From NCBI RefSeq assembly GCF_048403405.1, contig NZ_CP183129.1: a stretch of 64,000 bases of DNA, one strand, 5' to 3'. How positions within the stretch are numbered: position 1 is the stretch's first letter; every line of letters starts with the position of its first letter. Shown piece after piece: positions 1 through 56,843 of the stretch. Source of the stretch: Escherichia coli (GTDB lineage Bacteria > Pseudomonadota > Gammaproteobacteria > Enterobacterales > Enterobacteriaceae). The position numbers and the translations under genes are program-made. The notes under the pieces were generated by a model. It was not told the DNA's origin and did no database searches. It saw nothing but the letters and a program-made list of their open reading frames with translations.

Positions 1-960
1 GTAATTAAGATTCAGCCCGAGGTTATTTTGATTTTCGCCACTTTCACCCTGTTTATGCTGGGCCGTCACAGTGACTAATGGCACTGGGGTGTAATTTAAT
101 CCCAGACTCAACGCGACGGGATTGTGATAACCCGTACCAGAGTTAAACAAATCAACACGATCACCAAAATACTGTTCTACGCTGACACTGGTATTGAGGT
201 GTTGATAGAACGGCATGCGCATCCGGGCTGTCAGGTCGTACCCGCGCGCCATCCGTTGTTCCTGCGTGGCTGTCTGTTCGTGCCATGCAGCAAACGGCTG
301 GTAAAAGTTTGCCGATAGTCGCAAATATTCGCCCCACGCTTCGGCACCAAAGCCCGCTCGCTGAAGATTTTCGTCCAGCAAGTAGTCATAAAAAGTGTTA
401 TAACCCACCAGCCAGCTGCCGCGCGCCCAGCGTTGCCCAACGCCCACATTGCTCACCAACCCATCATCCTGCTGAGTAAGCCCCAGCTGGCTCCAGGTGA
501 GATAACGATCATTATCTTGTAACGGCACAAACCAGCTTCCACGACTGCCGGTGAAATGTCCTTCGTTATCCAGTTTGACGTCAACACTGGCATTTCCCCA
601 CGGTGATAGCCAGGACTCTACGTGCTGATTAACCTGTTGACTAAGCGCATCGCGGACTTTTCCCAATGCGAAAGCTTTTGCCTGCTCGCCAGTATCCAGC
701 CCGTTATCATTCATACTGGTTTCGCCGAAATCTTTCACAATTTCAGCAAAGTGTTTTTCCCCATCATGATTTTCAGGTGCCATGCCTAAATCCGGCAGAC
801 CATCATTGTTATTATCAAAGGGATTTGCCGCTTTTTGCTCGAAGGTAGATTGTGCGTTAGCTGTACCGCCTGCCGCCAGCAAGAGTAAATAAAACGGAAT
901 AATGCGAGGAACGAAACGGCTCAAAACGTCGGTAACTTCCGGTAAAAAATGAAAAACCAT
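1..960 (-). CDS. ychO: Invasin/intimin-family outer-membrane protein, N-terminal part; gene continues past the window start
   Basis: Minus-strand frame is open from the ATG at 958-960 to position 1 (translation MVFHFLPEVTDVLSRFVPRIIPFYLLLLAAGG...). It is absent from the supplied ORF track because it runs off the edge. Name from its position next to ychN in K-12, recalled from memory. Confidence 0.6.
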   Translation of the reverse strand, partial: MVFHFLPEVTDVLSRFVPRIIPFYLLLLAAGGTANAQSTFEQKAANPFDNNNDGLPDLGMAPENHDGEKHFAEIVKDFGETSMNDNGLDTGEQAKAFALGKVRDALSQQVNQHVESWLSPWGNASVDVKLDNEGHFTGSRGSWFVPLQDNDRYLTWSQLGLTQQDDGLVSNVGVGQRWARGSWLVGYNTFYDYLLDENLQRAGFGAEAWGEYLRLSANFYQPFAAWHEQTATQEQRMARGYDLTARMRMPFYQHLNTSVSVEQYFGDRVDLFNSGTGYHNPVALSLGLNYTPVPLVTVTAQHKQGESGENQNNLGLNLNY

Positions 961-988
961 AGCCCTAAAGAATAACGATTACTGGCAA

Positions 989-1092
<104 letters not shown>

Positions 1093-1109
1093 GAATACAG
1101 GAGTAAATA

Positions 1110-1463
1110 ATGCAAAAAATCGTGATCGTTGCCAATGGCGCACCTTACGGGAGCGAATCCTTGTTTAACAGCTTGCGGCTGGCCATTGCGTTACGAGAGC
1201 AGGAGAACAATCTGGATCTGCGTCTGTTCCTGATGTCTGATGCGGTCACAGCCGGGTTGCGCGGGCAAAAACCAGGGGAAGGCTACAACATTCAGCAAAT
1301 GCTGGAGATCCTTACCGCTCAGAATGTACCGGTGAAATTGTGCAAAACCTGTACCGACGGGCGCGGGATTAGCACACTTCCTCTGATTGATGGGGTGGAA
1401 ATCGGTACTCTTGTGGAACTGGCGCAATGGACGCTGTCAGCCGATAAAGTGCTCACATTTTAA
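1110..1463 (+). CDS. ychN: DsrE/YchN-family protein
   Basis: 117-aa ORF; sequence and position before chaC match K-12 YchN as I recall it. Confidence 0.85.
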   Translation: MQKIVIVANGAPYGSESLFNSLRLAIALREQENNLDLRLFLMSDAVTAGLRGQKPGEGYNIQQMLEILTAQNVPVKLCKTCTDGRGISTLPLIDGVEIGTLVELAQWTLSADKVLTF

Positions 1464-1471
1464 TGTTTGAG

Positions 1472-1488
1472 GGGGCGTCTGACGCCCC
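1472..1488. terminator. GC-rich hairpin between the convergent genes ychN and chaC
   Basis: Palindrome ggggcgtc/gacgcccc directly after the ychN stop; no clear T-run. Confidence 0.35.
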
Positions 1489-1506
1489 ACTATGAGGGAA
1501 GTTTAC

Positions 1507-2202
1507 TCAGGCGAATCCCGGCCGTAACACACCATCCGGATAATTCTCCGCCAGCAGTTTTTTTACCGATACCAGCAAATCATTCAGCCCATCGTCCTGC
1601 ATTCCCAGTTTGATAAGCTCCTGTTCCAGTGAAAACAGGTATTGTGCGTTGGTTCCCAGTGGACCGCTCGCCGCTGCAATCAACGGCGCGATGACCTGAG
1701 CGCGAGTGTCAGATTCATATTCTGGATGTCGCGGGTCCATAATAAACACAATGGCGTTTACTGTGCGTCCATCATCAAGATCAAGCTGACACCAGGTTGG
1801 CAGATAACAGCCGGTAATCATCTCGCGCTTCCACAACAGGGTTAGTTCCTGCTCCAGCGTCTCTTCTGGCAGTCGATAGGCGACGCCTGTGGTGCGTCCG
1901 CCCTCTTTCAGTGCAAGCATCCGTCCCGGCTGGTGCGCAGTCCCACGCCCGGCGGTCAGGCGCAGGCAAAACGCGCGATGCCATCCAACCAGTGTACCGG
2001 TGCACGACTCGGTAAACTCCAGTGCCGGATTCCACATCAACGATCCATAACCGAAGATCCACACCGGTCCCTCATCAGGTCGACAAGCCAGCGTCGCCGC
2101 CAGCGAAGCCGCCCGTTGCTCTGCTGACCATAAGAGTGATTCTTCAATGGCACCAAATGCCGTTTTACAATCGGCATTCATCAAGAAATCACGCGTTATC
2201 AC
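1507..2202 (-). CDS. chaC: Glutathione-specific gamma-glutamylcyclotransferase ChaC
   Basis: ORF 1507..2238; start trimmed to the GTG at 2200-2202, which has a GGAGG Shine-Dalgarno 6 nt upstream and gives VITRDFLMNADCK..., matching the K-12 ChaC N-terminus. Confidence 0.8.
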   Translation of the reverse strand: MITRDFLMNADCKTAFGAIEESLLWSAEQRAASLAATLACRPDEGPVWIFGYGSLMWNPALEFTESCTGTLVGWHRAFCLRLTAGRGTAHQPGRMLALKEGGRTTGVAYRLPEETLEQELTLLWKREMITGCYLPTWCQLDLDDGRTVNAIVFIMDPRHPEYESDTRAQVIAPLIAAASGPLGTNAQYLFSLEQELIKLGMQDDGLNDLLVSVKKLLAENYPDGVLRPGFA

Positions 2203-2359
2203 CTTACACCTCCGCCACTGCATACTTCCCTGCGACAACTTTTTGGTGTCTTCCGGACATTTTTACTGCTCATTTTGAAACCACTAACGGGACAATATGC
2301 AATCCACGGACCACTTGCAAGGCAACACCGCACGAATAGCTTTAACTAAGCTACCGGTT

Positions 2360-2590: not shown

Positions 2591-2859
2591 CGTTGACTCC
2601 TTTTACAAAGTTGAACATTAAGTGTGGTCAACAATATCCACTCTTGCCAAAACATAAGAATTTTCATGTCAGACTCTTCTTAAGAAACGCTAAAACAAAC
2701 ATTGTCTAAACGCATTGCTTATTTTTATGGCCCGATGAGTAAAAAATCGACAGCGGGGTAAAAATTCGTAAAATGTTACCGATATCCAGACACTTTCTGT
2801 TATTTTTCCTACCTATTTTTTACATTTTCGATAAATTCATCTGCAAAGGGATAACCATA

Positions 2860-3960
2860 ATGTCAAATGCTCAAGAGGCGGTAAAAACCCGCCACAAGGA
2901 GACTTCGCTTATTTTCCCGGTTCTGGCGCTGGTAGTGCTGTTCCTGTGGGGAAGCAGCCAGACACTACCAGTGGTCATTGGCATCAATCTTCTTGCTCTT
3001 ATTGGTATTTTAAGTAGCGCCTTTAGTGTTGTCCGTCATGCGGACGTATTAGCCCATCGCCTGGGAGAACCTTACGGTTCGCTTATTCTTAGCCTTTCAG
3101 TGGTTATTCTTGAAGTCAGTTTGATTTCAGCTTTAATGGCAACCGGCGACGCCGCGCCAACGCTAATGCGTGATACGCTCTATTCAATCATTATGATTGT
3201 TACCGGTGGGCTGGTTGGCTTTTCATTATTGTTGGGCGGACGCAAGTTTGCCACCCAATATATGAATCTGTTTGGTATCAAGCAGTATTTAATTGCGTTG
3301 TTCCCCCTGGCGATAATCGTACTGGTATTTCCAATGGCTCTGCCTGCGGCGAATTTTTCAACCGGTCAGGCGTTACTGGTAGCATTAATTTCTGCGGCAA
3401 TGTATGGCGTATTTTTGCTGATCCAGACCAAAACGCATCAAAGTTTATTTGTCTACGAGCACGAAGATGACAGTGATGATGACGACCCGCACCACGGTAA
3501 ACCGTCTGCCCATAGCAGCCTTTGGCATGCTATCTGGTTGATTGTCCATCTGATTGCCGTTATTGCAGTCACCAAAATGAACGCCAGCCCGCTGGAGACA
3601 TTGCTCGACAGCATGAATGCCCCTGTCGCCTTTACTGGCTTCCTGGTGGCTCTGTTGATTCTGTCGCCGGAAGGTTTAGGTGCGTTAAAAGCAGTGTTGA
3701 ACAACCAGGTCCAGCGCGCGATGAATCTGTTCTTTGGTTCAGTGTTAGCAACCATTTCGCTTACCGTACCTGTCGTCACGCTAATTGCCTTTATGACGGG
3801 TAACGAATTGCAGTTTGCACTTGGTGCGCCAGAAATGGTAGTGATGGTGGCCTCTTTAGTGCTGTGCCATATCTCCTTCTCCACCGGACGTACTAACGTG
3901 CTCAATGGCGCAGCGCATCTGGCACTGTTTGCCGCCTATTTGATGACGATATTTGCCTGA
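2860..3960 (+). CDS. chaA: Ca2+/H+ (Na+/H+) antiporter ChaA
   Basis: Start taken at the internal ATG (2860) giving MSNAQEAVKTRHKETSLIFPVLAL..., 366 aa, polytopic membrane protein with the acidic DDSDDDD loop. Confidence 0.9.
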   Translation: MSNAQEAVKTRHKETSLIFPVLALVVLFLWGSSQTLPVVIGINLLALIGILSSAFSVVRHADVLAHRLGEPYGSLILSLSVVILEVSLISALMATGDAAPTLMRDTLYSIIMIVTGGLVGFSLLLGGRKFATQYMNLFGIKQYLIALFPLAIIVLVFPMALPAANFSTGQALLVALISAAMYGVFLLIQTKTHQSLFVYEHEDDSDDDDPHHGKPSAHSSLWHAIWLIVHLIAVIAVTKMNASPLETLLDSMNAPVAFTGFLVALLILSPEGLGALKAVLNNQVQRAMNLFFGSVLATISLTVPVVTLIAFMTGNELQFALGAPEMVVMVASLVLCHISFSTGRTNVLNGAAHLALFAAYLMTIFA

Positions 3961-4251: not shown

Positions 4252-4318
4252 AGAAAACCCCCGCACGTTGAGAGGTAAAACCTGACAACAGAACGGGGGC
4301 TAATCTTGAACCATCAAC
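4252..4318 (-). ncRNA. rdl: Rdl antisense RNA, copy 1 (approximate position)
   Basis: Placed about 48 nt upstream of, and antisense to, the ldr start by analogy with K-12 ldrA/rdlA spacing (from memory); the region has complementary C5/G5 stems. Confidence 0.35.
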
Positions 4319-4786: not shown

Positions 4787-4853
4787 GAGAAAACCCCCGC
4801 ACGTTGAGAGGTATAACCTGACAACAGAACGGGGGCTAATCTTGAACCAGAAC
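4787..4853 (-). ncRNA. rdl: Rdl antisense RNA, copy 2 (approximate position)
   Basis: Same placement logic as copy 1, shifted by the 535-bp repeat period. Confidence 0.35.
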
Positions 4854-5129: not shown

Positions 5130-5815
5130 AGGTTTTTCAAATGCGCCTATAAGGCTCTCTTACCAGCCGCGCCCTAACAGGCGCACACGATCTGACATTT
5201 GCATCCAACTTCGTTACTTACGGCCCGTAAACGGGCTGCCCGGATAGGGAATCGATAACTGCTCTCCCATTTTATCCTCTTCAAGCTGGTGCTTTATGTA
5301 ATCCTGTATCTTCGCCGTGTTCTTACCCACCGTATCGACGTAGTACCCTCTGCACCAGAACTCCCTGTTCCTGTATTTGAATTTCAAATCACCAAACTGC
5401 TCGTAAAGCATCAGACTGCTTTTCCCTTTCAGATATCCCATAAAGCCGGATACGCTCATTTTGGGCGGGATCTCCACAAGCATATGGATATGATCTGCAC
5501 AGCATTCAGCTTCCAGAATCCGTACACTTTTCCACTCACACAGCTTTCTCAAAATACTGCCTATTGCTCTACGCTTCTCTCTGTAGAACACCTGTCTTCG
5601 GTATTTTGGCGCAAAAACTATGTGATATTTACAGTTCCATCGGGTGTGCGCTAAGCTCTTTTCGTTCCCCATTGGGACCCCCTTTTGATTTCTTGTTTGA
5701 CACTTGCAGTTGCCAGACCGCAAGGTGTTTTAACAAATCAAAAGGGGTTTTAATAACTGGCTTAAAGCTGAAAGCTTTCCGGAACCCCCAGCCTAGCTGG
5801 GGGTTTTCTGTGCAC
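5130..5815 (-). mobile_element. IS200-family insertion sequence (ends approximate)
   Basis: Contains a 152-aa IS200-type TnpA and, at its upstream end, the perfect hairpin aacccccagcctagctgggggtt (5783-5805). Sits between the ldr repeats and the kdsA stop, where my recollection of K-12 has no IS. Confidence 0.75.
5214..5672 (-). CDS. tnpA: IS200/IS605-family transposase TnpA (Y1 HUH type)
   Basis: Start at the ATG (complement of 5670-5672) with a GGGGG ribosome-binding site; MGNEKSLAHTRWNCKYHIVFAPKYRR...HIHMLVEIPPK is the classic IS200 TnpA sequence. Confidence 0.9.
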   Translation of the reverse strand: MGNEKSLAHTRWNCKYHIVFAPKYRRQVFYREKRRAIGSILRKLCEWKSVRILEAECCADHIHMLVEIPPKMSVSGFMGYLKGKSSLMLYEQFGDLKFKYRNREFWCRGYYVDTVGKNTAKIQDYIKHQLEEDKMGEQLSIPYPGSPFTGRK

Positions 5816-47206: not shown

Positions 47207-48900
47207 ATCCCCCGGTTAATCATACAGGCGGCAAATGCCCGGAAAGCGTTGCTCATGCTATTGTCGCTGGCGTCGGCACGAATATCATTGAGTTTCTGGC
47301 GCAACGTGGTCGCAAGATCAGGGTTATCGACAGCGATATCGTCAAGCAGGGCGTTACTCAGGTTGAGCTCGTTATCAAGGTCTGCAGCGGCAGCGGTAAT
47401 TTCATGATCTGCCTTTTGCGTTTCTTGATAAACCCGATCGGCTGTTTCGCTTGCTGGGCGAGCCGTTTCATCAACCTGCCGTGCCGGATTCTGTATGCGA
47501 TGGATGGCGCGTTCACGCAGTGCCGGTTTGTGCAGTTCATAGAAGGGCTCAACATCTGGGCTACGTCCTTCCATCATGTGTGCCAGCGCAGCGCGATACG
47601 CCTGCTGGTTCACGCTCCAGTCAGCATCCCTGATGGCGCTTGCGGCAGTGCGAACTGCGCCAGCGACCGGCGACATCTGCATGCCGTCCAGGATCTGCTG
47701 CGCACGCTCGGAAATGGTGACTTTCAGGTCGTCGGGGATCTCGCCGCGGGAAATCTGAGACTGGCGCCAGCGCGCCTGCTCTGCTGTCGCGTTCTGCTCC
47801 AGCGATGTGTTGATCTCCTGATTGCGTGCAGCGATGGCGTCTTTCTCGGCCTGAATCTCTTTCAGTGCCCTAGAGCGCGCATCCTTAAACTTCATCCGCT
47901 TCCCCTGATACTTTTTGGTGCGCTGTTGCAGCGTCGCATCAAGCGAGTCAGCATGACGTTGATTAGCCGCAAGCTCGGCACGCAGGTCGGCAACGTTACC
48001 GATCTGCCCGCTCTGTAACTCCTGCTGGCGCGCCATATAGTCAGGAACCACGTCGTCATAAGCCCGGCTGTATGCGTAGCTCTCCGCTTCACTGGAAATG
48101 GCCGCCGCCAGATCTGCGTTAGCGCCAACCTCAGGGATATTCACGCCCGCCGGAATGTTGTCAGGCGTTATCACCGGGGTTGGCTGCGCATCGCCAGAAA
48201 ACTCCGGGGACTCTCCCGTTGCAGCATCGGGAACGCGACGCGGTCGCACGATATCGGCGATAAGGCCGCCGCCGGCATGCATTAGACCGCCAGCCATCGT
48301 GTTAAAGAAAGTACTTTCCAACGCGTTGCTATAGGTGAAGTCGTCACCTTCCGCCGCCGCTGCCAGCCCGGTAAGCGGCACGGTCACCACCGCCTGCGCT
48401 GCCCCCATGCGTGCACCAGCAACAAATCGCTCGCCAAATCGGCCAAGCACAGAAGCTGCCTTTGCTTCTCCAGCGAACGGAACCAGCGCCAGCGCCACGT
48501 TACCAGGATCTGCCATTGAACCAGCTAGGCTGGCTGCGAAATTAAGCGGCGTGGCTACCCACCCGCTCGGTGCCGACATCGCAATCTGCTGGCGTGCCAG
48601 AGAATCTTTGCGTTCGGCAATAACATGATCGAGAAAAGCCTGCGTAACGCCAGAATCTGGCACGTTTATGCTCTTTACGCCGTACTGCTTCAGGAGCTCA
48701 TCTGCGTCCTGCTTACTGATAACTGTAGAGTTTGGGTCATTCGCCAGCGAGTCGGCCTGCGCAAAGCGGTAGCCGGACATGACCGGCCCCTCTTCAAATC
48801 CCTGCTTAAGGGAAGAAAGCAGCGATTCGCCAAGCCCTGCTGGCGCGTTGCCAATTGGCTGGTTAATGCCCTGTCCCGGATCATCTGTGTAAATTGGCAT
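47203..48900 (-). CDS. Large Ala/Gly-rich protein of unknown function (565 aa), second gene of cargo operon
   Basis: Translationally coupled on both sides; contains hydrophobic Gly/Ala-rich segments. Confidence 0.75.
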   Translation of the reverse strand: MPIYTDDPGQGINQPIGNAPAGLGESLLSSLKQGFEEGPVMSGYRFAQADSLANDPNSTVISKQDADELLKQYGVKSINVPDSGVTQAFLDHVIAERKDSLARQQIAMSAPSGWVATPLNFAASLAGSMADPGNVALALVPFAGEAKAASVLGRFGERFVAGARMGAAQAVVTVPLTGLAAAAEGDDFTYSNALESTFFNTMAGGLMHAGGGLIADIVRPRRVPDAATGESPEFSGDAQPTPVITPDNIPAGVNIPEVGANADLAAAISSEAESYAYSRAYDDVVPDYMARQQELQSGQIGNVADLRAELAANQRHADSLDATLQQRTKKYQGKRMKFKDARSRALKEIQAEKDAIAARNQEINTSLEQNATAEQARWRQSQISRGEIPDDLKVTISERAQQILDGMQMSPVAGAVRTAASAIRDADWSVNQQAYRAALAHMMEGRSPDVEPFYELHKPALRERAIHRIQNPARQVDETARPASETADRVYQETQKADHEITAAAADLDNELNLSNALLDDIAVDNPDLATTLRQKLNDIRADASDNSMSNAFRAFAACMINRGM

Positions 48901-48901
48901 G

Positions 48902-51523
48902 TTATCGTCCTGATTGCTGGCCGTTCTGGAAAATGTTAATCAGGTTGTCGCGCTGACTTTCTGCGCTGTATTCCTTAGACTGTCCGGGAGTATATTTCAC
49001 CGGAGTATCAATGAACTTGGTAATGCTGTTCCATACTGATCGGTTGGTTGTTCCCAGTTTCGCCAGATCGTTGAACGGCACCGTAATCGGGTTGCCGTCG
49101 GCACCGTTGACGATCAGCCCGTTGAGCATCAGGGTAAGTCCTGTTTCGTCGCTGTTGGTAACCCACTGCGCATTATCACGAATGCGGGAGATACTCTGCT
49201 CACGGTTGACCTCATCAGGTAGCCTTGGGTCACCAATAAGCGGCATAATCTGATCTGCTGACAGGTTTTTCAGATACGCATTGGCACCATCGTTAACGTC
49301 ACGAATATCTATCCCTGCACGCTTAGGTAGCCGCCAAGTGCCATTGGTCTGATACTGCTCGCCGAGGATGTCCTGATACGCCTGTTTTGCTGCATCAGAC
49401 GCCGACATTCCGCGCTGCATGTTGATGTAAGTAAGTCGTTTTCCCTGCTCGTTGAAGTTATTCCACACGGCAGTGCCACCAGGCTGAACAACCATCGTGC
49501 CAGCAAAATCTTTCGATTGGTCATTCCATGACGAGTCGGCGCTATCCGCGTCGGTTTTCTCAAGACTGCCGCGTAAGTCAGCAGTTTTAACGCTACGGTT
49601 TTGCCAGAGCGCATTTGCCGCGCGCGGGTTCTCGGTAGCCATGACAACCTGCAACGCAGGATAAGCGCTCTTCTGAACCTGCTGCATCACCTGATCCGAG
49701 TATTTTCCGAACGACTGCGCCACCGACTGAATGGCCTTTACGCTAGATTCCTGCGTGTTGTCAATACGCTGCAGTACGTCGTTGACCATGGACTCCGGTA
49801 AAACTTTTTTGCTCATTATCCCCAGGCGGTCTTTTTCAGACTGTATGCGGGAAACTAGGTATTCACCAGATGAAGGGTCATTGAGGTACTGCTGGAATGC
49901 AGCCTGCACAACCGGAGAGTTTTGTTGCAGCCATGCCCCCGGATCCGCTTCCCGCGCCTTCAGTACCTGCCCAAGCTTGACCTTTGCCGATGCATAAAGC
50001 TCGGCTTTGTATTTAAAGTCAGGGTCGTTTTCCTGCGGTGCCATTGCCTGCACGGCGGCGGTACCCTGCTGGACGTTGCCCTGCATGATGGTCTGATAAA
50101 CAGGTTGTAGCGTCATTGCCTGCTGGTATTGCTGGAAGGTTTTTTCCATCTGCAGGCGCTCGGCAGGCGCTGCCTGAAGCGGCATAACGGCGGCCCATTC
50201 GTGCGCTGAAATAGGCGTCACCTGCTTACCGGCCTCAATTTTGGATAGGTCGTCCTGCATTCGACTCTGTAGCGCAACGCGACCGGCTGAAGCCTGCATG
50301 TCGTACATGCCAGCAACCTTGCTCATCATCTGCGACTTTTTGTCCGGACTCATGGCGTTCCAGAATGGCTGTGCGATGAGGTTTTCCATCGTCGCAGATC
50401 CAGGAATAGCTCCAGCACTGCCAGTTACTTTTGCCACATAATTGCGCGTCTCGTCGTATGGGATAGCTGCGGCAAACTGGGCGTTACTGACTTCGCCTGT
50501 GCGCGGATCGCCAATCTGTTTAATCCAGCCGTCAACCTTTCCTGGGCCAGCGTTATAGGCAGCTACTGCCAGAACCGGGTTATTGTCGTATTTCTTCATC
50601 TGCGCGCCGAAATAAGCTTGCCCCAAGCGGGCATTATAGCGCGGGTCATTCAACCATTTATCTCGGTCCCACGGCACACCAGCAAGGCGGGCAGCTTCGG
50701 GGCCAGTATCTTCCGTCACCTGCGCTACGCCAACAGCGCCTTTTGGCGACACCAGAGGTGTTCCGTCCTTTCCGTACTGATTTCCGCCACTCTCCTGCCA
50801 GATTATTGCAGAGAATAACTGCGCCTCACTCGGTGTATCGGTTACCTCAATCTTGCCGTTCGGCCCCATCATCTGTTGATACATCGGCACATACCACGCC
50901 TCCGCCGCACCGTTCGCGGCATTCTCGCGCCACGAAACCCAGTTCTGTTCGATCTCTTCCTGACTCTGGCCGTGTGCTTCGCCGTAAGCGATGATGCTAT
51001 GATATGCCTTCAATCCTGCCTGGTTTGCCATTGTCGGGTTACGGAACTGCATCGATAGGTTTTTTAGTGTCGCATCCTGCATATCCGCCTCATACTGGCG
51101 AACCTGTCCTATTTCGTACCTCCCAGCCTGCGTAGTGAACTGAATGCGCTGCTGCTGCGCCTGCTGCATGAAAGCATTACGAGCCTGTTCATCCGGCAGC
51201 GACATAGCCAGTTGTTCGACCTGAGCATCAAACTGCTGCGTATACTCCTGACCTTTTCCAATAGCATTTTTCCCTTTCAGGTTAAGCAAACCTGTTTCAG
51301 GGTTATTCAGCAGATCGCTGCCTGTCTGACTGAGTTTAAGGGATGCCTCCTGAACCAAGGCAATATTGGCACGCTGTTTTGCCTGACCCAGAACATCAAT
51401 TGCCTCTGCTCCTGCACGAACAAAAGCATCACTAATACCTGGCTGAGAAAACGTCTGCAAGCCTGCTGACTGAACTCCACGGCTCTCAACCTGACGTCCG
51501 GATACTGTTGGTACGACTGGCAT
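48902..51523 (-). CDS. Large protein (873 aa) with an internal lytic-transglycosylase (SLT-like) motif
   Basis: GGAGG ribosome-binding site before the ATG; motif AIIWQESGGNQYG...GVAQV...AAYNAGPGKV at about aa 230-330, resembling soluble lytic transglycosylase active sites. Confidence 0.8.
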   Translation of the reverse strand: MPVVPTVSGRQVESRGVQSAGLQTFSQPGISDAFVRAGAEAIDVLGQAKQRANIALVQEASLKLSQTGSDLLNNPETGLLNLKGKNAIGKGQEYTQQFDAQVEQLAMSLPDEQARNAFMQQAQQQRIQFTTQAGRYEIGQVRQYEADMQDATLKNLSMQFRNPTMANQAGLKAYHSIIAYGEAHGQSQEEIEQNWVSWRENAANGAAEAWYVPMYQQMMGPNGKIEVTDTPSEAQLFSAIIWQESGGNQYGKDGTPLVSPKGAVGVAQVTEDTGPEAARLAGVPWDRDKWLNDPRYNARLGQAYFGAQMKKYDNNPVLAVAAYNAGPGKVDGWIKQIGDPRTGEVSNAQFAAAIPYDETRNYVAKVTGSAGAIPGSATMENLIAQPFWNAMSPDKKSQMMSKVAGMYDMQASAGRVALQSRMQDDLSKIEAGKQVTPISAHEWAAVMPLQAAPAERLQMEKTFQQYQQAMTLQPVYQTIMQGNVQQGTAAVQAMAPQENDPDFKYKAELYASAKVKLGQVLKAREADPGAWLQQNSPVVQAAFQQYLNDPSSGEYLVSRIQSEKDRLGIMSKKVLPESMVNDVLQRIDNTQESSVKAIQSVAQSFGKYSDQVMQQVQKSAYPALQVVMATENPRAANALWQNRSVKTADLRGSLEKTDADSADSSWNDQSKDFAGTMVVQPGGTAVWNNFNEQGKRLTYINMQRGMSASDAAKQAYQDILGEQYQTNGTWRLPKRAGIDIRDVNDGANAYLKNLSADQIMPLIGDPRLPDEVNREQSISRIRDNAQWVTNSDETGLTLMLNGLIVNGADGNPITVPFNDLAKLGTTNRSVWNSITKFIDTPVKYTPGQSKEYSAESQRDNLINIFQNGQQSGR

Positions 51524-51619
51524 TAGTAACCTCCTATTTTGAATCGGGAGTCAGAATTCATAAAACCTGAGTTAGATAACATTGGCGTCCCTCTGCTTTG
51601 ATGCTGTACCAGCGATTCA

Positions 51620-51826
51620 TTACTCACCCCCCGATGCAAAACCATTCTGATTAAGCCAGGCGTTTACGGCATGTCTGACAATCTGCGCCACGCCTGGTAA
51701 TGGCTGATCAGGGTGATTGTTCACATGGTCGATTCTGTACTGCTTAATGCGCATCACGGTCTGTGCATCCAGATGAACGGAACCACCTCTGACATCGCCT
51801 GTGTTCAGGTCGTTAATACAATTCAC
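51620..51826 (-). CDS. Small protein (68 aa), possible DNA-binding regulator upstream of the cargo operon
   Basis: ORF only; C-terminal helix-like AQIVRHAVNAWL; function is inferred from position. Confidence 0.4.
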   Translation of the reverse strand: MNCINDLNTGDVRGGSVHLDAQTVMRIKQYRIDHVNNHPDQPLPGVAQIVRHAVNAWLNQNGFASGGE

Positions 51827-51918
51827 AGCAATTTCCTCTTACTGACTAAACTATGCACATTATTGATCTGAAAAAGTGGTAGATAAACATATTTCTATCA
51901 CAAAAACAGATTGATTGA

Positions 51919-51942
51919 TTTCAGCCCCAAAAAAAGCCGGAT
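51919..51942 (-). terminator. Rho-independent terminator separating the replication module from the cargo operon
   Basis: Minus-strand hairpin agccgg-agcaat-ccggct followed by U7 (plus-strand A7 at 51919-51925). Confidence 0.75.
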
Positions 51943-52192
51943 TGCTCCGGCTCTGTGCTTACTTCTGGTAGTTACGCCATACTGATTTCCCGATCCCATC
52001 TATCCCCATTTCTTTTTCAGTGCGTTTAAGCGACCGTTTCAGGTCTTCTAAATTATCCGGTTGCTTCGGTGGCCTCTGTGCCTTCCTGGAACATTCCAGT
52101 CGTCGCATTGATATGTAATACCGTTCCTTATCAGTTTCCCAACTGCATTACTTCACCCCATCGCGCCGCCGCTCTTCGGTACAGGGTTTTAG

Positions 52193-52609
52193 TTAGCCTC
52201 CGACTCTTCCGTAGCGCTGTTCTGGTGGATTCACATAGCCCCTTTCTTGCAGGTATTCGCGAATATCAGACATCAGGAGACGGTTAACCGTGCTCTTGTC
52301 TTTTCTCCGGTAAAGGCGTCTGGTGATCATGAAGTAGTTAGCAATGACCTCCGGTATATCCCTGACGCTGATACATGCTGTATGCTGGTCAATAGCTTCA
52401 ATCATCTCTTCACGAGTTACAAAAGTCTGGCGTAAACGAGTGATCACACCATGTACATCTGAACGATCATTTATACGCTTATTTTGGCGCTTCGCGCTCT
52501 CGACTGTGACACTGACAATAATGTCAACTCTTTGTTTTTCCGCCATTTCATCCACAATGTGATCACCTGCACGGCGACCATGTGCGTGATCATTTCTTAC
52601 TATTTCCAT
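52193..52609 (-). CDS. Hypothetical protein (138 aa)
   Basis: ORF overlapping the FinO-like gene end by 20 nt; the true start may be the internal MAEKQ. Confidence 0.45.
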
Positions 52610-53087
52610 TCATCTCCTCCAGTAGTTTTCCTGCGTGCGTCTGTTGTAGTGGTGTTACCTCGCCGCACGGCTGGCCTTTCAGGTCGTAACGCGCGCCACC
52701 AGCTACCAGGGCGCGGTAATAGCGCGGAGTCTGCACATAACGCGCCAGCGTTGCGCGTAGTGTTCCCTGTCCGAGTGAAATACCTCTCGCGGCAATATCC
52801 TGTATCAGGTCGTCAAATATCCCCACCTTAAGCGGCTTAGGTGATTCCGGGCTGAATAATTCAGGCCATAGCTCAATAAGACGGTTAACGCGTCTGCGGT
52901 TTTTACGCTGCTGTTTGGTCATACGCCGCCGCGGTGTTGCTCCTGTGAGCTTCTGCTGTGTGTTCTGGTTATCTGGCATCACTTTATGCGCCGATGTGGT
53001 TTTATTCTGCTGCTGCGCCGCCTGTGCTGTTTTCTGCGGCGTGCCGTAAATGCCCTTCGGTTTTCTGTTTATGGTCAGCTTTGTCAT
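52590..53087 (-). CDS. ProQ/FinO-domain RNA-binding protein
   Basis: [14 protein letters not shown]...[35 protein letters not shown] aligns by eye with E. coli ProQ (PLKIGIFQDLVDRV...[35 protein letters not shown]). Confidence 0.75.
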
Positions 53088-53123
53088 GCCTTCCCCTGTA
53101 ATTACTCTGTTCGCTGTTGTGAA

Positions 53124-53546
53124 TTAAAACGGTATCCCGTCCCCGTACGGATCGTCGTTACCCGCCTGTTGTTTTGCCCTGTTCAGTGCGTCAGTAGCCT
53201 GCCCTTGCTGGCCTTTTTTGCCGCCCGGTCGCGCCGTTCTCGCACTGATTACGCTGTCTGCGATAACCTGCCAGCCCTGCCGCGTTTCGCCGTTCTGGCC
53301 TGTCCACTGGCTTACCTGCATGTTACCCGCCACGCTCACCAGTTCGCCTTTGTGGTGTTTTGCCAGTGCGTCGGCCTGTCTGCCAAACGCCAGGACGGAT
53401 AACCACATCGTCGCCGTTCCGTCATCTGCCTGATTGCATGGAAGGGGGACCGCCATACTCGCCATCGCCATTTGTGTGCCCTTGCTGGTGGTCTTTAACT
53501 GCGGGTCAGCCACCAGCCGCCCGTAAGCTGATATTTGCGCCGTCAT
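53124..53546 (-). CDS. ssb: Single-stranded DNA-binding protein (SSB-like)
   Basis: OB-fold-like core (YGRLVADPQL ... WLSVLAFGRQA) and the acidic C-terminal tail DDPYGDGIPF, which resembles the SSB DDDIPF tip. Confidence 0.7.
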   Translation of the reverse strand: MTAQISAYGRLVADPQLKTTSKGTQMAMASMAVPLPCNQADDGTATMWLSVLAFGRQADALAKHHKGELVSVAGNMQVSQWTGQNGETRQGWQVIADSVISARTARPGGKKGQQGQATDALNRAKQQAGNDDPYGDGIPF

Positions 53547-53609
53547 GCTGTTTGTTCTCCGGTTTTAACGTGATAGTTACGCTTGTTTACACTCTTACAG
53601 TGAAATTTT

Positions 53610-53732
53610 GCGGGTTACAATCGCACATTTGCGGGTTATAACTGCCGTTTTGCGGGTTACGTGCGGGTTATTGATTTCCTTTTTAATCATGCAGTTAATT
53701 AACTTATGCACAGGATAACCCGCATAACCCGC
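53610..53732. repeat. Iteron cluster 2: four direct GCGGGTTAY copies (53610-53671) plus two tandem inverted copies (53715-53732)
   Basis: Read directly; lies between the primase/helicase stop and the ssb start. Confidence 0.85.
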
Positions 53733-53756
53733 AACTTTTTACCTCACACAGGGAAG

Positions 53757-55883
53757 TTAATCTTCTGCTTCAGGCTGGAACATCAGCACGTAAAAAATAT
53801 GCTGCTTCCCGCCAATCCTGCCGAGCGCCTTTTTCTTGTAACGGCGGTCGCCTCCCGCTTCCAGCATTCCGGCAGCACTCAACGCGCGGGCAAAGTGAGA
53901 CGGATTAAATCCCTGTGCTATCTCACCCTCAAACACATGCGGGAACGTGTAAAAACGGAACTCGTCATCTTCGTTTCTGATACTCCCCTTTCTGTATCCG
54001 GCAAGGTCTTTAATCGGTAAATCACGCTCGTCGCTGTTTGGATAGGGAAGGTATCGACTGAACCCGAACGACGACAAAAACGCCTCAGCCTGTTCAACCA
54101 TCTGTTTAAATTCCCTGTTGCCCGTGCCGAATTCCTTCACCCAGGCATTAAAGTTATGCTGAACTGCATCACGGCACGCCTGAACATCCCAGCCTGTAAC
54201 ATGACCGGAAAGCACAAGCGCGGCCTCCAGTACGGCGAATCTTTCCCCCACACGGTGAACCTGCTCGCCGTAGCTCTCCGGTATCAGGTTGCGCCACCGC
54301 TCGCGACATGCCCTTACCGCGTCCTTTGCCTCCTGCTGGTGACCTGCCAGCCATTTAACCCACTCACGACCTGCCGCCCCGTGATTTTCTGTCCAGGCAT
54401 CTTTTAACGCGTCTGCGTGCGCCTTTCCGGTGCTGTATTCGTGAAACTGCGATGCCTTTTCCATCGGCACGTTAAGCAGACGGACAAGCTGCCCCGCTTT
54501 AATTTTTATCCCTTCCGTTTTGAGGAATGTTTCAACGTCCATTTCTCCGGTGCTGATTGCCACCGTGCGCCAGTGTTTTATCTCCCTGTTGCCGCCGTCC
54601 TTCGCCCCCTGTAATTTCCCGGAACCGTTAAACAGCGTATAGGCTGACGTGGACACCTCCCGCGCGTTTCCGGCCTGGCCTATTTCATCCAGGGGTAACA
54701 GCCCGTCATTATGTGCTTCGGCCTCGTTGGCGATACCTAACGCCGTTCCGTACCAGGTCAGCCGTTGCGCGTCCGGCTCTCCCCATAAACTTGATGCAAT
54801 GTTCTGTGTGGTGGTTTTACCTGCTGATGATTGCTCAAAAAGATGAACCCCGAAGCCGTCAGCACCCACCAGCCCGATTAATGGTGCGGATAGCGATACC
54901 GCCACACCCAGCATCATGGACGGATTACCACCAGCCAGCCGTGCCACGGTATCGCGCCAGCCCTCCGCTGTTCCCGCCACGGAATAGCCATTAACAGCGG
55001 CAGTTTTTCCGGTAAACAGGATGGGTTTCTCTGATTCACCAATGACCGAACCATCCGGCATGATGTACGCACCAAAATGCCACCCCGTTGTTGTGCTTAA
55101 CTGCCATTCCTCATGGTTTCCGCTTAACTGCATCCAGTCAGCCAGGATAGCCCTGTATTTGCCGTTGGTCGTCACGTTAAGGCCGTGGTCTTTCAGCAAC
55201 CGCCAGCCGTCACGGTCACCAATGCCTCCGCACGGGACCGCCATTGTAATGACCTCATGGTTTGCTGGTTTTTTCCAGCGCATCACGCGGTAATGCTCTT
55301 TGCCGATTGTTCCTGTTCCCAGTAGTTCAAGCGGAGAACATAACCACGTCTCAGGCCGGATAATTTCGCCTGACTGCTTGTCCACTTTGGGCGTTACCCA
55401 GAAAACACCATCGACGCGACTTTCAACACGAGGCTTTAATTCGTCATCATAATTTCCGGTGAAATTTGTCTTCGCCGGAAGGTTGATCACCAGACTGTTA
55501 CCGCGTTCCGCATCATCCTTCAGTCCAGCCATGCGCGGTGTCCAGTCCTCCGGCTGCTGATCAACAAAGCTGCGGTAGCAACGCGCCTCCTTCACACCCG
55601 CCACTGCAAGCAGTGTCGCTATCTGTGTAAGGTGCTGCTCTGATATTTCACCAGCACGATAAACGCGCACGTAATAGCGCCCTTTGTCGATGATTTGCGT
55701 GTCTGCCAGACTCGCCAGTTGTTCCGGTCCAAGAATAACTGGATGTGTATCATCTGCCGCAATATGCTTTCCGGCCCATTCGCTCCACTCTTTCGCATGT
55801 GCCCAGGCATCACTACCCGCAAAGATAATCACCTCCGTCATTTTGTCTTTCGGCTGGTGCTTTAAATTCGGTGCGCGTTTCAT
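53757..55883 (-). CDS. Phage/plasmid primase-helicase (P4 alpha-like replication protein)
   Basis: 708 aa; Walker A-like EQSSAGKTT; size and position downstream of alpA and upstream of the iterons. Confidence 0.7.
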   Translation of the reverse strand: MKRAPNLKHQPKDKMTEVIIFAGSDAWAHAKEWSEWAGKHIAADDTHPVILGPEQLASLADTQIIDKGRYYVRVYRAGEISEQHLTQIATLLAVAGVKEARCYRSFVDQQPEDWTPRMAGLKDDAERGNSLVINLPAKTNFTGNYDDELKPRVESRVDGVFWVTPKVDKQSGEIIRPETWLCSPLELLGTGTIGKEHYRVMRWKKPANHEVITMAVPCGGIGDRDGWRLLKDHGLNVTTNGKYRAILADWMQLSGNHEEWQLSTTTGWHFGAYIMPDGSVIGESEKPILFTGKTAAVNGYSVAGTAEGWRDTVARLAGGNPSMMLGVAVSLSAPLIGLVGADGFGVHLFEQSSAGKTTTQNIASSLWGEPDAQRLTWYGTALGIANEAEAHNDGLLPLDEIGQAGNAREVSTSAYTLFNGSGKLQGAKDGGNREIKHWRTVAISTGEMDVETFLKTEGIKIKAGQLVRLLNVPMEKASQFHEYSTGKAHADALKDAWTENHGAAGREWVKWLAGHQQEAKDAVRACRERWRNLIPESYGEQVHRVGERFAVLEAALVLSGHVTGWDVQACRDAVQHNFNAWVKEFGTGNREFKQMVEQAEAFLSSFGFSRYLPYPNSDERDLPIKDLAGYRKGSIRNEDDEFRFYTFPHVFEGEIAQGFNPSHFARALSAAGMLEAGGDRRYKKKALGRIGGKQHIFYVLMFQPEAED

Positions 55884-56182
55884 TTCTTGCCCCTGAATGC
55901 GTTAATCATGTTCTTTATTACCTGAATATTTGCCCGTGCTTTCTCTTTACTGGTGGGCTTACTGCGTGGTACTGCACATACCAGTGAAAAATCACGCCGG
56001 AACTGATGAACGGGCATCACACAGTCATAGTCGTACCCTGCGCGGCGGTATGTAATGTGCCGTTCATACACGGAATTAATAACCACGCTGTCACCATATT
56101 TATCCCGGAAAATATCCCCGATCCTGATTTTCGGGTGAGTCTGTCCGCTGGCATTTAAGCCAGTAAATTTAATCTTCTTCAT
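55880..56182 (-). CDS. Hypothetical protein (100 aa)
   Basis: ORF with 4-nt overlap onto the primase start. Confidence 0.5.
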   Translation of the reverse strand: MKKIKFTGLNASGQTHPKIRIGDIFRDKYGDSVVINSVYERHITYRRAGYDYDCVMPVHQFRRDFSLVCAVPRSKPTSKEKARANIQVIKNMINAFRGKK

Positions 56183-56184
56183 GT

Positions 56185-56442
56185 TTATTTCCCGGTGTGA
56201 GGTTCTTCTTTATATTTATGGGCTAACAAATCTGGTAATTGCCTGTATTTATCCTCGGCAATATATTCAGAATAATCGACAGCACTGTTCAGTATATCTA
56301 ACGCCGTTTCATGCTCCAGATTCGAAACTATAAGGAACGTTGCTACTTTTAGCATATTCGCGATATGCAAAAGAGCATCAATTTCATTTTTTGGCGCTTC
56401 ACTGAATTTTTGCTCCAGAAGAATAAATCGTTCATCACGCAT
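56185..56442 (-). CDS. Hypothetical protein (85 aa)
   Basis: ORF 2 nt upstream of the 100-aa gene. Confidence 0.5.
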   Translation of the reverse strand: MRDERFILLEQKFSEAPKNEIDALLHIANMLKVATFLIVSNLEHETALDILNSAVDYSEYIAEDKYRQLPDLLAHKYKEEPHTGK

Positions 56443-56638
56443 AGTATTCCCCCTGACGGATGCGGGCAGTAAATACCATCACGCAGCCAGCCGGGGATTG
56501 CTGACGGGCTTCCTGTTCGCTGGCGGCCTCGATGTGTATTACGCGTGGTTGTGCGGTGCTCAGGGCGATAAAACGCCAGATGTATTTATTCAGGTTGTGC
56601 GAGTCCCGCCCTTGCGGGTGTGTGGTATGATTTAACAT
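56435..56638 (-). CDS. Hypothetical small protein (67 aa)
   Basis: ATG (complement of 56636-56638) preceded by GAGG at the proper spacing. It is the 3-prime segment of an otherwise implausible 345-aa ORF in the track. Confidence 0.4.
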   Translation of the reverse strand: MLNHTTHPQGRDSHNLNKYIWRFIALSTAQPRVIHIEAASEQEARQQSPAGCVMVFTARIRQGEYYA

Positions 56639-56735
56639 AGCTACCTCGATACGCTTTCTATCGTTGGTGGTTAGACGCCCTGCATGTGTTGCGAGCACTG
56701 CGGGGCGTTGCTTAATTTGAGCAATGCAACCCAAA

Positions 56736-56771
56736 CTGTGCGCACAGATTAAAATCATGTGTGCGCACATG
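56736..56771. promoter_or_regulatory. Two GTGCGCAC-core palindromic operators 20 bp apart in a divergent promoter region
   Basis: ctgtgcgcacag (56736-56747) and catgtgtgcgcacatg (56756-56771); further copies at 56805-56816 (half site) and 57069-57081. Confidence 0.6.
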
Positions 56772-56843
56772 TCAATACTTAACTTCTCACTTTTTTTGCT
56801 GTATTGTGTGCGCCCATCAAATCCATTTAAGTGAGGTGTACCA

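What the first reader, a model, noticed from the sequence alone, without database searches (positions are those of the whole stretch)
1..960. Edge-truncated ychO is missing from the supplied ORF track
The minus strand is open for all 320 codons from the ATG at 958-960 to the window start, encoding an invasin-family protein. The track omits it, presumably because the ORF has no in-window stop. The same caveat applies to dadA at the other end, whose listed start (63952) is only an internal Met.
Basis: seen in the sequence. Interest (0 to 1): 0.15.

Follow-up and report, generated by a model that had tools for sequence, protein, structure and literature searches.

The report
Edge-cut ychO gene, ordinary annotation gap
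The left end of the window holds the first two-thirds of ychO, a well-known and almost universal E. coli gene for an outer-membrane "inverse autotransporter"; the ORF list misses it only because its stop codon lies beyond the window edge, so this is an ordinary bookkeeping gap and not a discovery.

Summary
The minus strand of 1-960 is open for all 320 codons (chance about 5e-8), while the other five frames carry 9-26 stops. The DNA is 100% identical to E. coli chromosomes where it is annotated as ychO, "inverse autotransporter invasin YchO", 464 aa, in the usual narL-ychO-ychN-chaCBA context. It passes Pfam IAT_beta (E 5.5e-89) and the NCBIfam YchO/YchP equivalog. The mechanical ORF list skips it because the ORF runs off the window.

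Two details need correcting.
1. The ATG at 958-960 is probably not the start. RefSeq and K-12 both start ychO at the TTG at 922-924. At least 3,701 of about 5,420 complete E. coli records carry a 1-nt deletion between the ATG and the TTG. That puts the ATG out of frame, where it opens a 12-codon mini-ORF ending in TGA over the TTG. One strain has ATT instead of ATG.
2. dadA is indeed cut by the right edge: residues 140-432 of 432 are present. Its listed start at 63952 is a GTG that encodes internal Val156, not a Met.

Verdict: already known, low interest. In passing I noted a rare ~19-kb integrase-bearing element at about 42.76-61.77 kb.

The parts
1..924 (-). ychO coding sequence, 5' part: codons 1-308 of 464, counted from the TTG start at 922-924. 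The remaining 156 codons plus the stop (471 nt) lie beyond the left window edge.
   Evidence: Open frame. 100% identical to annotated ychO in six E. coli chromosomes. RefSeq CDS limits in strain 4621 and K-12. 302/308 identical to K-12 YchO.
925..960 (-). Twelve codons upstream of the TTG that are in frame in this strain (ATG at 958-960, MVFHFLPEVTDV). Most likely 5' leader, not coding sequence of YchO.
   Evidence: A 1-nt length polymorphism in the T-run puts this ATG out of frame in K-12, CLSC36, MB165 and 100248. The two deleted alleles are carried unchanged by 2,534 and 1,167 records. In those alleles the ATG opens a 12-codon mini-ORF ending in TGA over the TTG.
853..924 (-). Predicted Sec signal peptide, MSRFVPRIIPFYLLLLAAGGTANA, with predicted cleavage before Q25. 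It has two Arg in the n-region, a hydrophobic core and an A-N-A cleavage motif.
   Evidence: Sequence inspection and a hydropathy scan. No dedicated signal-peptide predictor was available. Pilatti et al. 2016 (PMC4787180) also describe an N-terminal signal sequence that older annotations had cut off.
1..735 (-). Inverse-autotransporter beta-barrel domain (Pfam PF11924 IAT_beta), profile positions 4-246 of 279. The last ~33 profile positions and the whole C-terminal passenger are outside the window.
   Evidence: The full-length protein from an identical genome matches the solved invasin (4e1t, E 1.2e-46) and intimin (4e1s, E 2.6e-41) barrels over residues 108-348.
961..1109 (.). ychO-ychN divergent intergenic region. 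With 925-960 it makes 185 bp between the two annotated start codons.
   Evidence: Annotation. The promoter and terminator scan found nothing above the shuffle expectation. No Rfam family here.
1110..1463 (+). ychN (DsrE/F sulfur relay family protein), the divergent neighbour that fixes the synteny.
63119..64000 (-). dadA (D-amino acid dehydrogenase), 3' part: residues 140-432 of 432 plus the stop. The first 139 codons (417 nt) lie beyond the right window edge. The 'start' listed at 63950-63952 is the GTG codon of Val156.
   Evidence: NCBIfam NF001933, 475 bits against a cut-off of 383, profile 140-419. RefSeq dadA limits in strain 4621. Full translation. ORF list.

Best explanation
Window 1-924 (minus strand) is the 5' two-thirds of ychO (b1220). 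I infer this is the same gene as iatA of Goh et al. 2019. It is a core E. coli gene for a small inverse autotransporter (type Ve secretion, intimin/invasin family).

Expected mechanism, taken from what is established for this family and not shown here:
- The pre-protein is exported by Sec through a 24-residue signal peptide.
- The IAT_beta domain is inserted into the outer membrane as a 12-stranded barrel.
- The short C-terminal passenger (about 115 aa, encoded outside the window) is threaded through the barrel to the cell surface, where it contributes to adhesion, invasion and biofilm formation.

Translation most likely starts at the TTG at 922-924, not at the ATG at 958-960. If the predicted cleavage before Q25 is correct, the mature protein is the same whichever start is used. 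The gene is missing from the ORF track only because its stop codon lies 471 nt beyond the window edge. dadA at the right edge is cut in the same way and loses its first 139 codons.
For: Shown here:
- A 320-codon open frame, chance about 5e-8.
- 1-1500 is 100% identical to six E. coli chromosomes and is present in 5,420 of 5,426 genomes, annotated ychO + ychN.
- Synteny narX-narL-ychO-ychN-chaC-chaB-chaA.
- Pfam IAT_beta, E 5.5e-89.
- NCBIfam equivalog NF007556 YchO/YchP: 510.1 bits against a cut-off of 508 for the truncated protein, 800.5 bits for the full length.
- Matches to the invasin and intimin barrels in the PDB.
- 98% identity to K-12 YchO.

For the start codon:
- RefSeq and K-12 CDSs are 1,395 nt and start at the TTG.
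- The ATG is out of frame in at least 3,701 of about 5,420 records. In a spread sample, 26 of 40 records showed a 1-nt-shorter span.
- The ATG is ATT in strain 100248.
- The family profile begins 2 residues after the TTG.
- The TTG start gives a canonical signal peptide.

From the literature:
- An APEC ychO null mutant shows reduced adhesion, invasion, biofilm formation and virulence (PMC4787180).
- iatA is a 1,395-bp gene present in 124 of 126 genomes, with a short passenger modelled as FN3/Ig-like (PMC6714894).
Against: - The rest of the gene in this particular genome cannot be seen, so its intactness is inferred from the six genomes that are identical over 1-1500.
- No candidate start has a Shine-Dalgarno match better than background: -3.4 to -3.6 kcal/mol against a background of -2.4 +/- 2.2, compared with -6.9 for ychN. 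Ribosome-binding signals therefore do not confirm the TTG.
- In this strain the ATG is in frame, so some initiation there cannot be excluded.
- The passenger region (residues 342-464) has no Pfam hit.
- Surface display of IatA could not be shown by Goh et al..
Confidence: 0.93

Rival explanations
1. In this strain, and in the roughly one-third of E. coli with the in-frame allele, the ATG at 958-960 is the real start. This would give a 476-aa pre-protein whose signal peptide has a 12-residue longer n-region.
For: The ATG is in frame with no intervening stop. ATG is intrinsically a better initiator than TTG (established knowledge). The in-frame arrangement is also seen in O157:H7 F7508 and 14EC017. 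Shine-Dalgarno scores do not favour the TTG.
Against: The ATG is out of frame in at least 68% of genomes that still carry an intact, non-pseudogene 464-aa ychO, and it is ATT in one strain. RefSeq annotates the TTG even in in-frame strains. The only SD-like AGGG/AAGG lies 2 nt from the ATG, which is too close. The extension adds E and D to the n-region of the signal peptide.
Confidence: 0.12
2. The gene starts at the internal ATG at 781-783, which is Met48 of the 464-aa protein. This matches older annotations that lacked the first 141 bp.
For: Pilatti et al. report that the deposited SEPT362 annotation lacked a 141-bp signal-peptide segment. The ATG at 781-783 is the next in-frame ATG.
Against: An outer-membrane beta-barrel protein needs a signal peptide, and only the upstream starts supply one. 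The NCBIfam profile covers residues 5-454 of the 464-aa protein, so it includes the region upstream of Met48. Current RefSeq and K-12 annotations use the TTG.
Confidence: 0.02
3. The open frame is a decayed or non-functional remnant (pseudogene) in this genome, not a working gene.
For: Only 308 of 464 codons are visible. Goh et al. could not detect IatA protein.
Against: There is no stop in 320 codons. The visible part is 98% identical to K-12 YchO with no gaps. In genomes identical over 1-1500 the gene is annotated intact. The gene is kept in 5,420 of 5,426 genomes. A mutant phenotype has been reported in APEC.
Confidence: 0.02

Closest known systems
YchO (b1220, NP_415738.2) of E. coli K-12 MG1655, 'putative invasin YchO'
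   Same: Same gene at the same chromosomal place between narL and ychN. 302 of 308 visible residues are identical with no gaps. Both have the TTG start context and the same signal peptide apart from A17V.
   Different: Six amino-acid substitutions. The window's allele has one more T in the run upstream of the TTG, so the upstream ATG is in frame here. In K-12 that ATG opens a separate 12-codon mini-ORF.
IatA (EcSMS35_1920) of E. coli SMS-3-5, Goh et al. 2019 (PMC6714894)
   Same: Same gene length (1,395 bp), near-universal presence (124 of 126 genomes), and the same layout: signal sequence, beta-barrel and a short passenger without Big_1 repeats, LysM or a lectin domain. This matches what is found here.
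   Different: That iatA and ychO are the same gene is my inference from length, prevalence and architecture. The paper never uses the name ychO, and I did not compare the sequences.
Invasin (Yersinia pseudotuberculosis, PDB 4E1T) and intimin (EHEC, PDB 4E1S/5G26)
   Same: Homologous 12-stranded inverse-autotransporter beta-barrel: E 1.2e-46 and 2.6e-41 over YchO residues 108-348. Same Pfam IAT_beta domain.
   Different: Invasin and intimin carry long passengers of Ig-like repeats capped by a C-type lectin-like domain, and intimin also has a periplasmic LysM domain. YchO has only about 115 residues after the barrel, with no recognisable Pfam domain. Scores against the intimin and SinH NCBIfam models are far below their cut-offs, so it is a family relative and not an orthologue.
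DadA, D-amino acid dehydrogenase of E. coli (for the right-hand edge)
   Same: Residues 140-432 are present, followed by dadX as in every E. coli.
   Different: Nothing of note. The first 139 codons are outside the window.

Membership tests
Inverse autotransporter (type Ve secretion; intimin/invasin family) | IAT_beta outer-membrane barrel domain (Pfam PF11924), homologous to the solved invasin and intimin barrels | tested here: met
   E 5.5e-89, profile 4-246 of 279 in the window fragment. E 4.3e-103, profile 4-279 in the full-length protein of an identical genome. PDB 4e1t at 1.2e-46 and 4e1s at 2.6e-41.
Inverse autotransporter (type Ve secretion; intimin/invasin family) | N-terminal Sec signal peptide ahead of the barrel | tested here: met
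   MSRFVPRIIPFYLLLLAAGGTANA|Q: a basic n-region, a hydrophobic core (9-residue Kyte-Doolittle mean up to 2.7) and an A-x-A site. This rests on inspection only, not on a trained predictor.
Inverse autotransporter (type Ve secretion; intimin/invasin family) | Inverted order: the barrel is N-terminal and the passenger is C-terminal, with the passenger usually built of Ig-like domains | tested here: inconclusive
   The order is met in the full-length protein: barrel at 64-341, then about 120 further residues. That tail is outside the window and has no Pfam hit. The Ig/FN3-like fold is only reported from Phyre2 modelling by Goh et al.. I did not predict the structure.
Inverse autotransporter (type Ve secretion; intimin/invasin family) | Passenger displayed on the cell surface, with adhesin or invasin activity | not testable with these tools
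   Literature only. The APEC ychO mutant is less adhesive and less invasive (PMC4787180). IatA protein could not be detected by Goh et al..
YchO/YchP family invasin (NCBIfam NF007556, equivalog) | Score at or above the curated cut-off of 508 bits | tested here: met
   510.1 bits for the 320-aa fragment. 800.5 bits for the full-length 464-aa protein from a genome identical over 1-1500.
YchO/YchP family invasin (NCBIfam NF007556, equivalog) | Conserved chromosomal position narL-ychO-ychN in E. coli | tested here: met
   ychN lies at 1110-1463 (+) in the window. narX-narL-ychO-ychN-chaCBA is seen in strain 4621 and K-12.
D-amino acid dehydrogenase DadA (NCBIfam NF001933) | Score above the cut-off (383 bits) and a dadAX operon arrangement | tested here: met
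   475 bits, profile 140-419 of 429. dadX lies directly downstream at 62039-63109 (-).

The most novel reading that the evidence does not exclude
The short T-run between the upstream ATG and the TTG start may act as a lineage-fixed switch. In about two-thirds of E. coli (5-T or TTATT alleles) the ATG opens a 12-codon leader mini-ORF (MVFH[YF]YRKLPTF) whose TGA stop overlaps the TTG start as TTGA. That is a termination-reinitiation arrangement which could drive translation from an otherwise weak TTG that lacks a Shine-Dalgarno sequence. In the other third, including this window (6-T allele), the same ATG is fused in frame and would give a longer signal peptide. If both arrangements are used, ychO expression would depend on the upstream ATG in every lineage.
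Probability: 0.08. Interest if true: 0.25.

Novelty: already known. Interest (0 to 1): 0.04.

Why it matters
It matters only for housekeeping. A stop-to-stop ORF list drops genes that are cut by a window edge and gives false starts to genes cut at their 5' end, so both ends of every window need a separate check. The same mechanical rule also over-extends starts: here ychO would be too long by 12 codons, chaC by 12 and chaA by 29. Nothing here changes what is known about ychO or dadA.

Tried and rejected
- **Shine-Dalgarno scoring.** I scored anti-SD duplex energy for the four in-frame candidate starts (958, 922, 880, 781). None is better than background, whereas the ychN control is clearly better. 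This does not help to choose a start.
- **Promoter and terminator scan of 800-1200.** One promoter-like and one terminator-like hit, each at the level expected from shuffles. No use.
- **Rfam scan of the whole window.** Nothing in 1-1500, so there is no sign of a structured RNA or antisense element under the finding.
- **Search for ychO by name in the two main inverse-autotransporter surveys.** The name is absent from both. The link to iatA therefore stays an inference.
- **Attachment-site repeat at the ends of the 19-kb element.** Only a 10-bp exact match and a 9/12 imperfect overlap turned up. Not resolved.
- **Not run on purpose.** I did not run the large protein or genome-collection searches or a structure prediction. 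The identification was already unambiguous, and the passenger domain lies outside the window.

Full report
**Observation.** Translating window 1-960 on the minus strand gives 320 sense codons with no stop, beginning at the ATG at 958-960. The other five frames of the same stretch contain 9-26 stops. With this base composition, a 320-codon open frame has a chance probability of about 5e-8. The mechanical ORF list has no entry for this frame, only short shadow ORFs of up to 72 aa in other frames. This agrees with its stated rule that ORFs running off an end are not listed.

**Identity.** Window 1-1500 is 100% identical to six complete E. coli chromosomes. It is present at 95% identity or more in 5,420 of 5,426 complete genomes, always annotated as ychO ("inverse autotransporter invasin YchO") plus ychN. 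In strain 4621 and in K-12 MG1655 the context is narX-narL-ychO-ychN-chaC-chaB-chaA, and the window continues the same way.

The fragment matches Pfam IAT_beta with E 5.5e-89, covering profile positions 4-246 of 279, so the barrel domain itself is cut by the window edge. Even truncated, it just clears the curated cut-off of the NCBIfam equivalog "YchO/YchP family invasin", at 510.1 against 508 bits. The full-length protein from an identical genome scores 800.5 bits. Scores against the models for intimin, SinH and other inverse autotransporters are far below their cut-offs. The closest solved structures are the invasin (4e1t) and intimin (4e1s) beta-barrels, over residues 108-348. The visible part is 302/308 identical to K-12 YchO without gaps.

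**Start codon.** Every RefSeq record I opened, and K-12 (b1220, NP_415738.2), annotate a 1,395-nt (464-aa) gene whose first codon corresponds to the TTG at window 922-924. That is 12 codons downstream of the ATG.

Alignment of seven alleles shows that the T-run between the ATG and the TTG varies in length:
- The window, O157:H7 F7508 and 14EC017 have six T, so the ATG is in frame.
- K-12, MB165 (TTATT), CLSC36 and 100248 (five T) have one base less, so the ATG is out of frame.
- Strain 100248 also has ATT in place of the ATG.

The two deleted 80-nt alleles are carried unchanged by 2,534 and 1,167 records. So at least 3,701 of about 5,420 records (68%) have the ATG out of frame while keeping an intact ychO. 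An even-step sample of the ranking gave 26 of 40 records with a 1-nt-shorter span. The window's own allele is carried unchanged by 570 records.

In the deleted alleles the ATG opens a 12-codon mini-ORF (MVFHYYRKLPTF or MVFHFYRKLPTF) whose TGA overlaps the TTG as TTGA. The family profile begins two residues after the TTG. The TTG start also yields a canonical signal peptide, MSRFVPRIIPFYLLLLAAGGTANA|Q, whereas the ATG would add MVFHFLPEVTDV, with two acidic residues, to the n-region.

Shine-Dalgarno scoring does not discriminate, because no candidate start is above background. I conclude that the TTG at 922-924 is the start (about 0.8), and that 925-960 is leader that happens to be in frame in this lineage. 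If the predicted cleavage before Q25 is right, the mature protein would be the same either way.

A third start is the ATG at 781-783, which I take to be the start behind the older annotation that Pilatti et al. describe as lacking 141 bp. It would leave an outer-membrane protein without a signal peptide, so I reject it.

**Function and mechanism.** By homology, YchO is a small type Ve (inverse) autotransporter. The expected steps are Sec export, insertion of the N-terminal 12-stranded barrel into the outer membrane, and passage of the C-terminal passenger through the barrel to the surface. Only the domain homology, the signal peptide features and the domain order are shown here. The steps themselves are inferred from established knowledge of intimin and invasin.

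The passenger (residues ~342-464) lies outside the window and has no Pfam match. Goh et al. 2019 describe IatA, a 1,395-bp gene found in 124 of 126 genomes. It has a short passenger modelled as FN3/Ig-like, and they could not detect the protein (PMC6714894). That this is ychO is my inference. Pilatti et al. 2016 report that an APEC ychO null mutant is reduced in adhesion, invasion, biofilm formation and virulence, with broad transcriptome changes (PMC4787180). ychO is also listed as a YfeC-bound, differentially expressed gene (PMC8464067) and as half of a ychO-narL convergent transcript overlap (PMC12288877).

**The dadA remark.** Window 63119-64000 (-) is open to the right edge. It matches the D-amino acid dehydrogenase model at profile positions 140-419 of 429 (475 bits, cut-off 383). 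In strain 4621 dadA is 1,299 nt (432 aa) and extends 417 nt beyond the point that corresponds to window 64000. The window therefore holds residues 140-432. The ORF list's start at 63950-63952 is a GTG, which in the real protein is Val156 (...[12 protein letters not shown]...).

**Verdict.** This is a correct, low-value bookkeeping note about a well-known core gene. Novelty: already known. The only mildly new thing is the lineage-fixed T-run polymorphism, which turns the upstream ATG into either an in-frame extension or an overlapping 12-codon mini-ORF. I give it a low probability of having any function.

**Seen in passing.**
- The window is about 18-19 kb longer than the same interval in strain 4621. 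A phage-like integrative element lies at about 42,757-61,767, inside the 3' end of a leucine-rich-repeat protein gene between cvrA and dadX. It carries a tyrosine integrase, Rha, AntA, DUF927 and SLT-domain proteins, and several large ORFs with no family match.
- Only 2 of 5,426 complete genomes carry 80% or more of this element, and none has this junction with dadX.
- Rfam finds two rdlD antitoxin RNAs and STnc490 at 4.2-5.8 kb.
- The ORF list over-extends chaC by 12 codons and chaA by 29 codons relative to RefSeq.

Noticed in passing
window ~42757-61767 (junctions at about 42756 and 61768-61780): A ~19-kb phage-like integrative element is inserted in the 3' end of a leucine-rich-repeat protein gene (ORF 41412-42758 +) between cvrA and dadX. 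It carries a tyrosine integrase (60311-61663 -), Rha (58201-58899 -), AntA (57465-58208 -), a DUF927 protein (53757-55883 -), an SLT-domain 873-aa protein (48902-51523 -) and large ORFs with no Pfam match (47203-48900, 44654-47206, 44091-44651 -). Strain 4621 has the empty site. Only 2 of 5,426 complete E. coli genomes hold 80% or more of it, and none has this junction with dadX. A few patches are about 94% identical to phiV10-like phages. I found no clear attachment-site repeat.
   Followed up: partly
window 925-960 (-); K-12 locus L002 1750-1788: The T-run upstream of the ychO TTG start differs in length between lineages. In at least 68% of genomes the upstream ATG opens a 12-codon mini-ORF whose TGA overlaps the TTG start (TTGA). 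In the window's lineage the ATG is fused in frame to ychO. Translational coupling is possible but untested.
   Followed up: partly
window 4252-4317 (-), 4788-4853 (-), 5682-5805 (-): Two rdlD antitoxin RNAs (87 and 83.6 bits) lie where strain 4621 annotates an Ldr-family toxin gene downstream of chaA, which points to ldr/rdl type I toxin-antitoxin repeats. There is also an STnc490 Hfq-binding sRNA match at 146 bits.
   Followed up: no
window 1507-2238 (-) and 2773-3960 (+): The mechanical ORF list over-extends two neighbouring genes relative to RefSeq. chaC is listed as 243 aa from a TTG against 231 aa annotated (window 1507-2202). chaA is listed as 395 aa against 366 aa annotated (window 2860-3960). 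This is the same 'first start after a stop' artefact as the ATG at 958.
   Followed up: yes
locus L001 2529/2530 (outside the window, 471 nt left of window position 1): The ychO and narL coding regions converge and abut with no spacer. The pair is listed among RNA-seq-detected transcript overlaps ('excludons') in PMC12288877.
   Followed up: no
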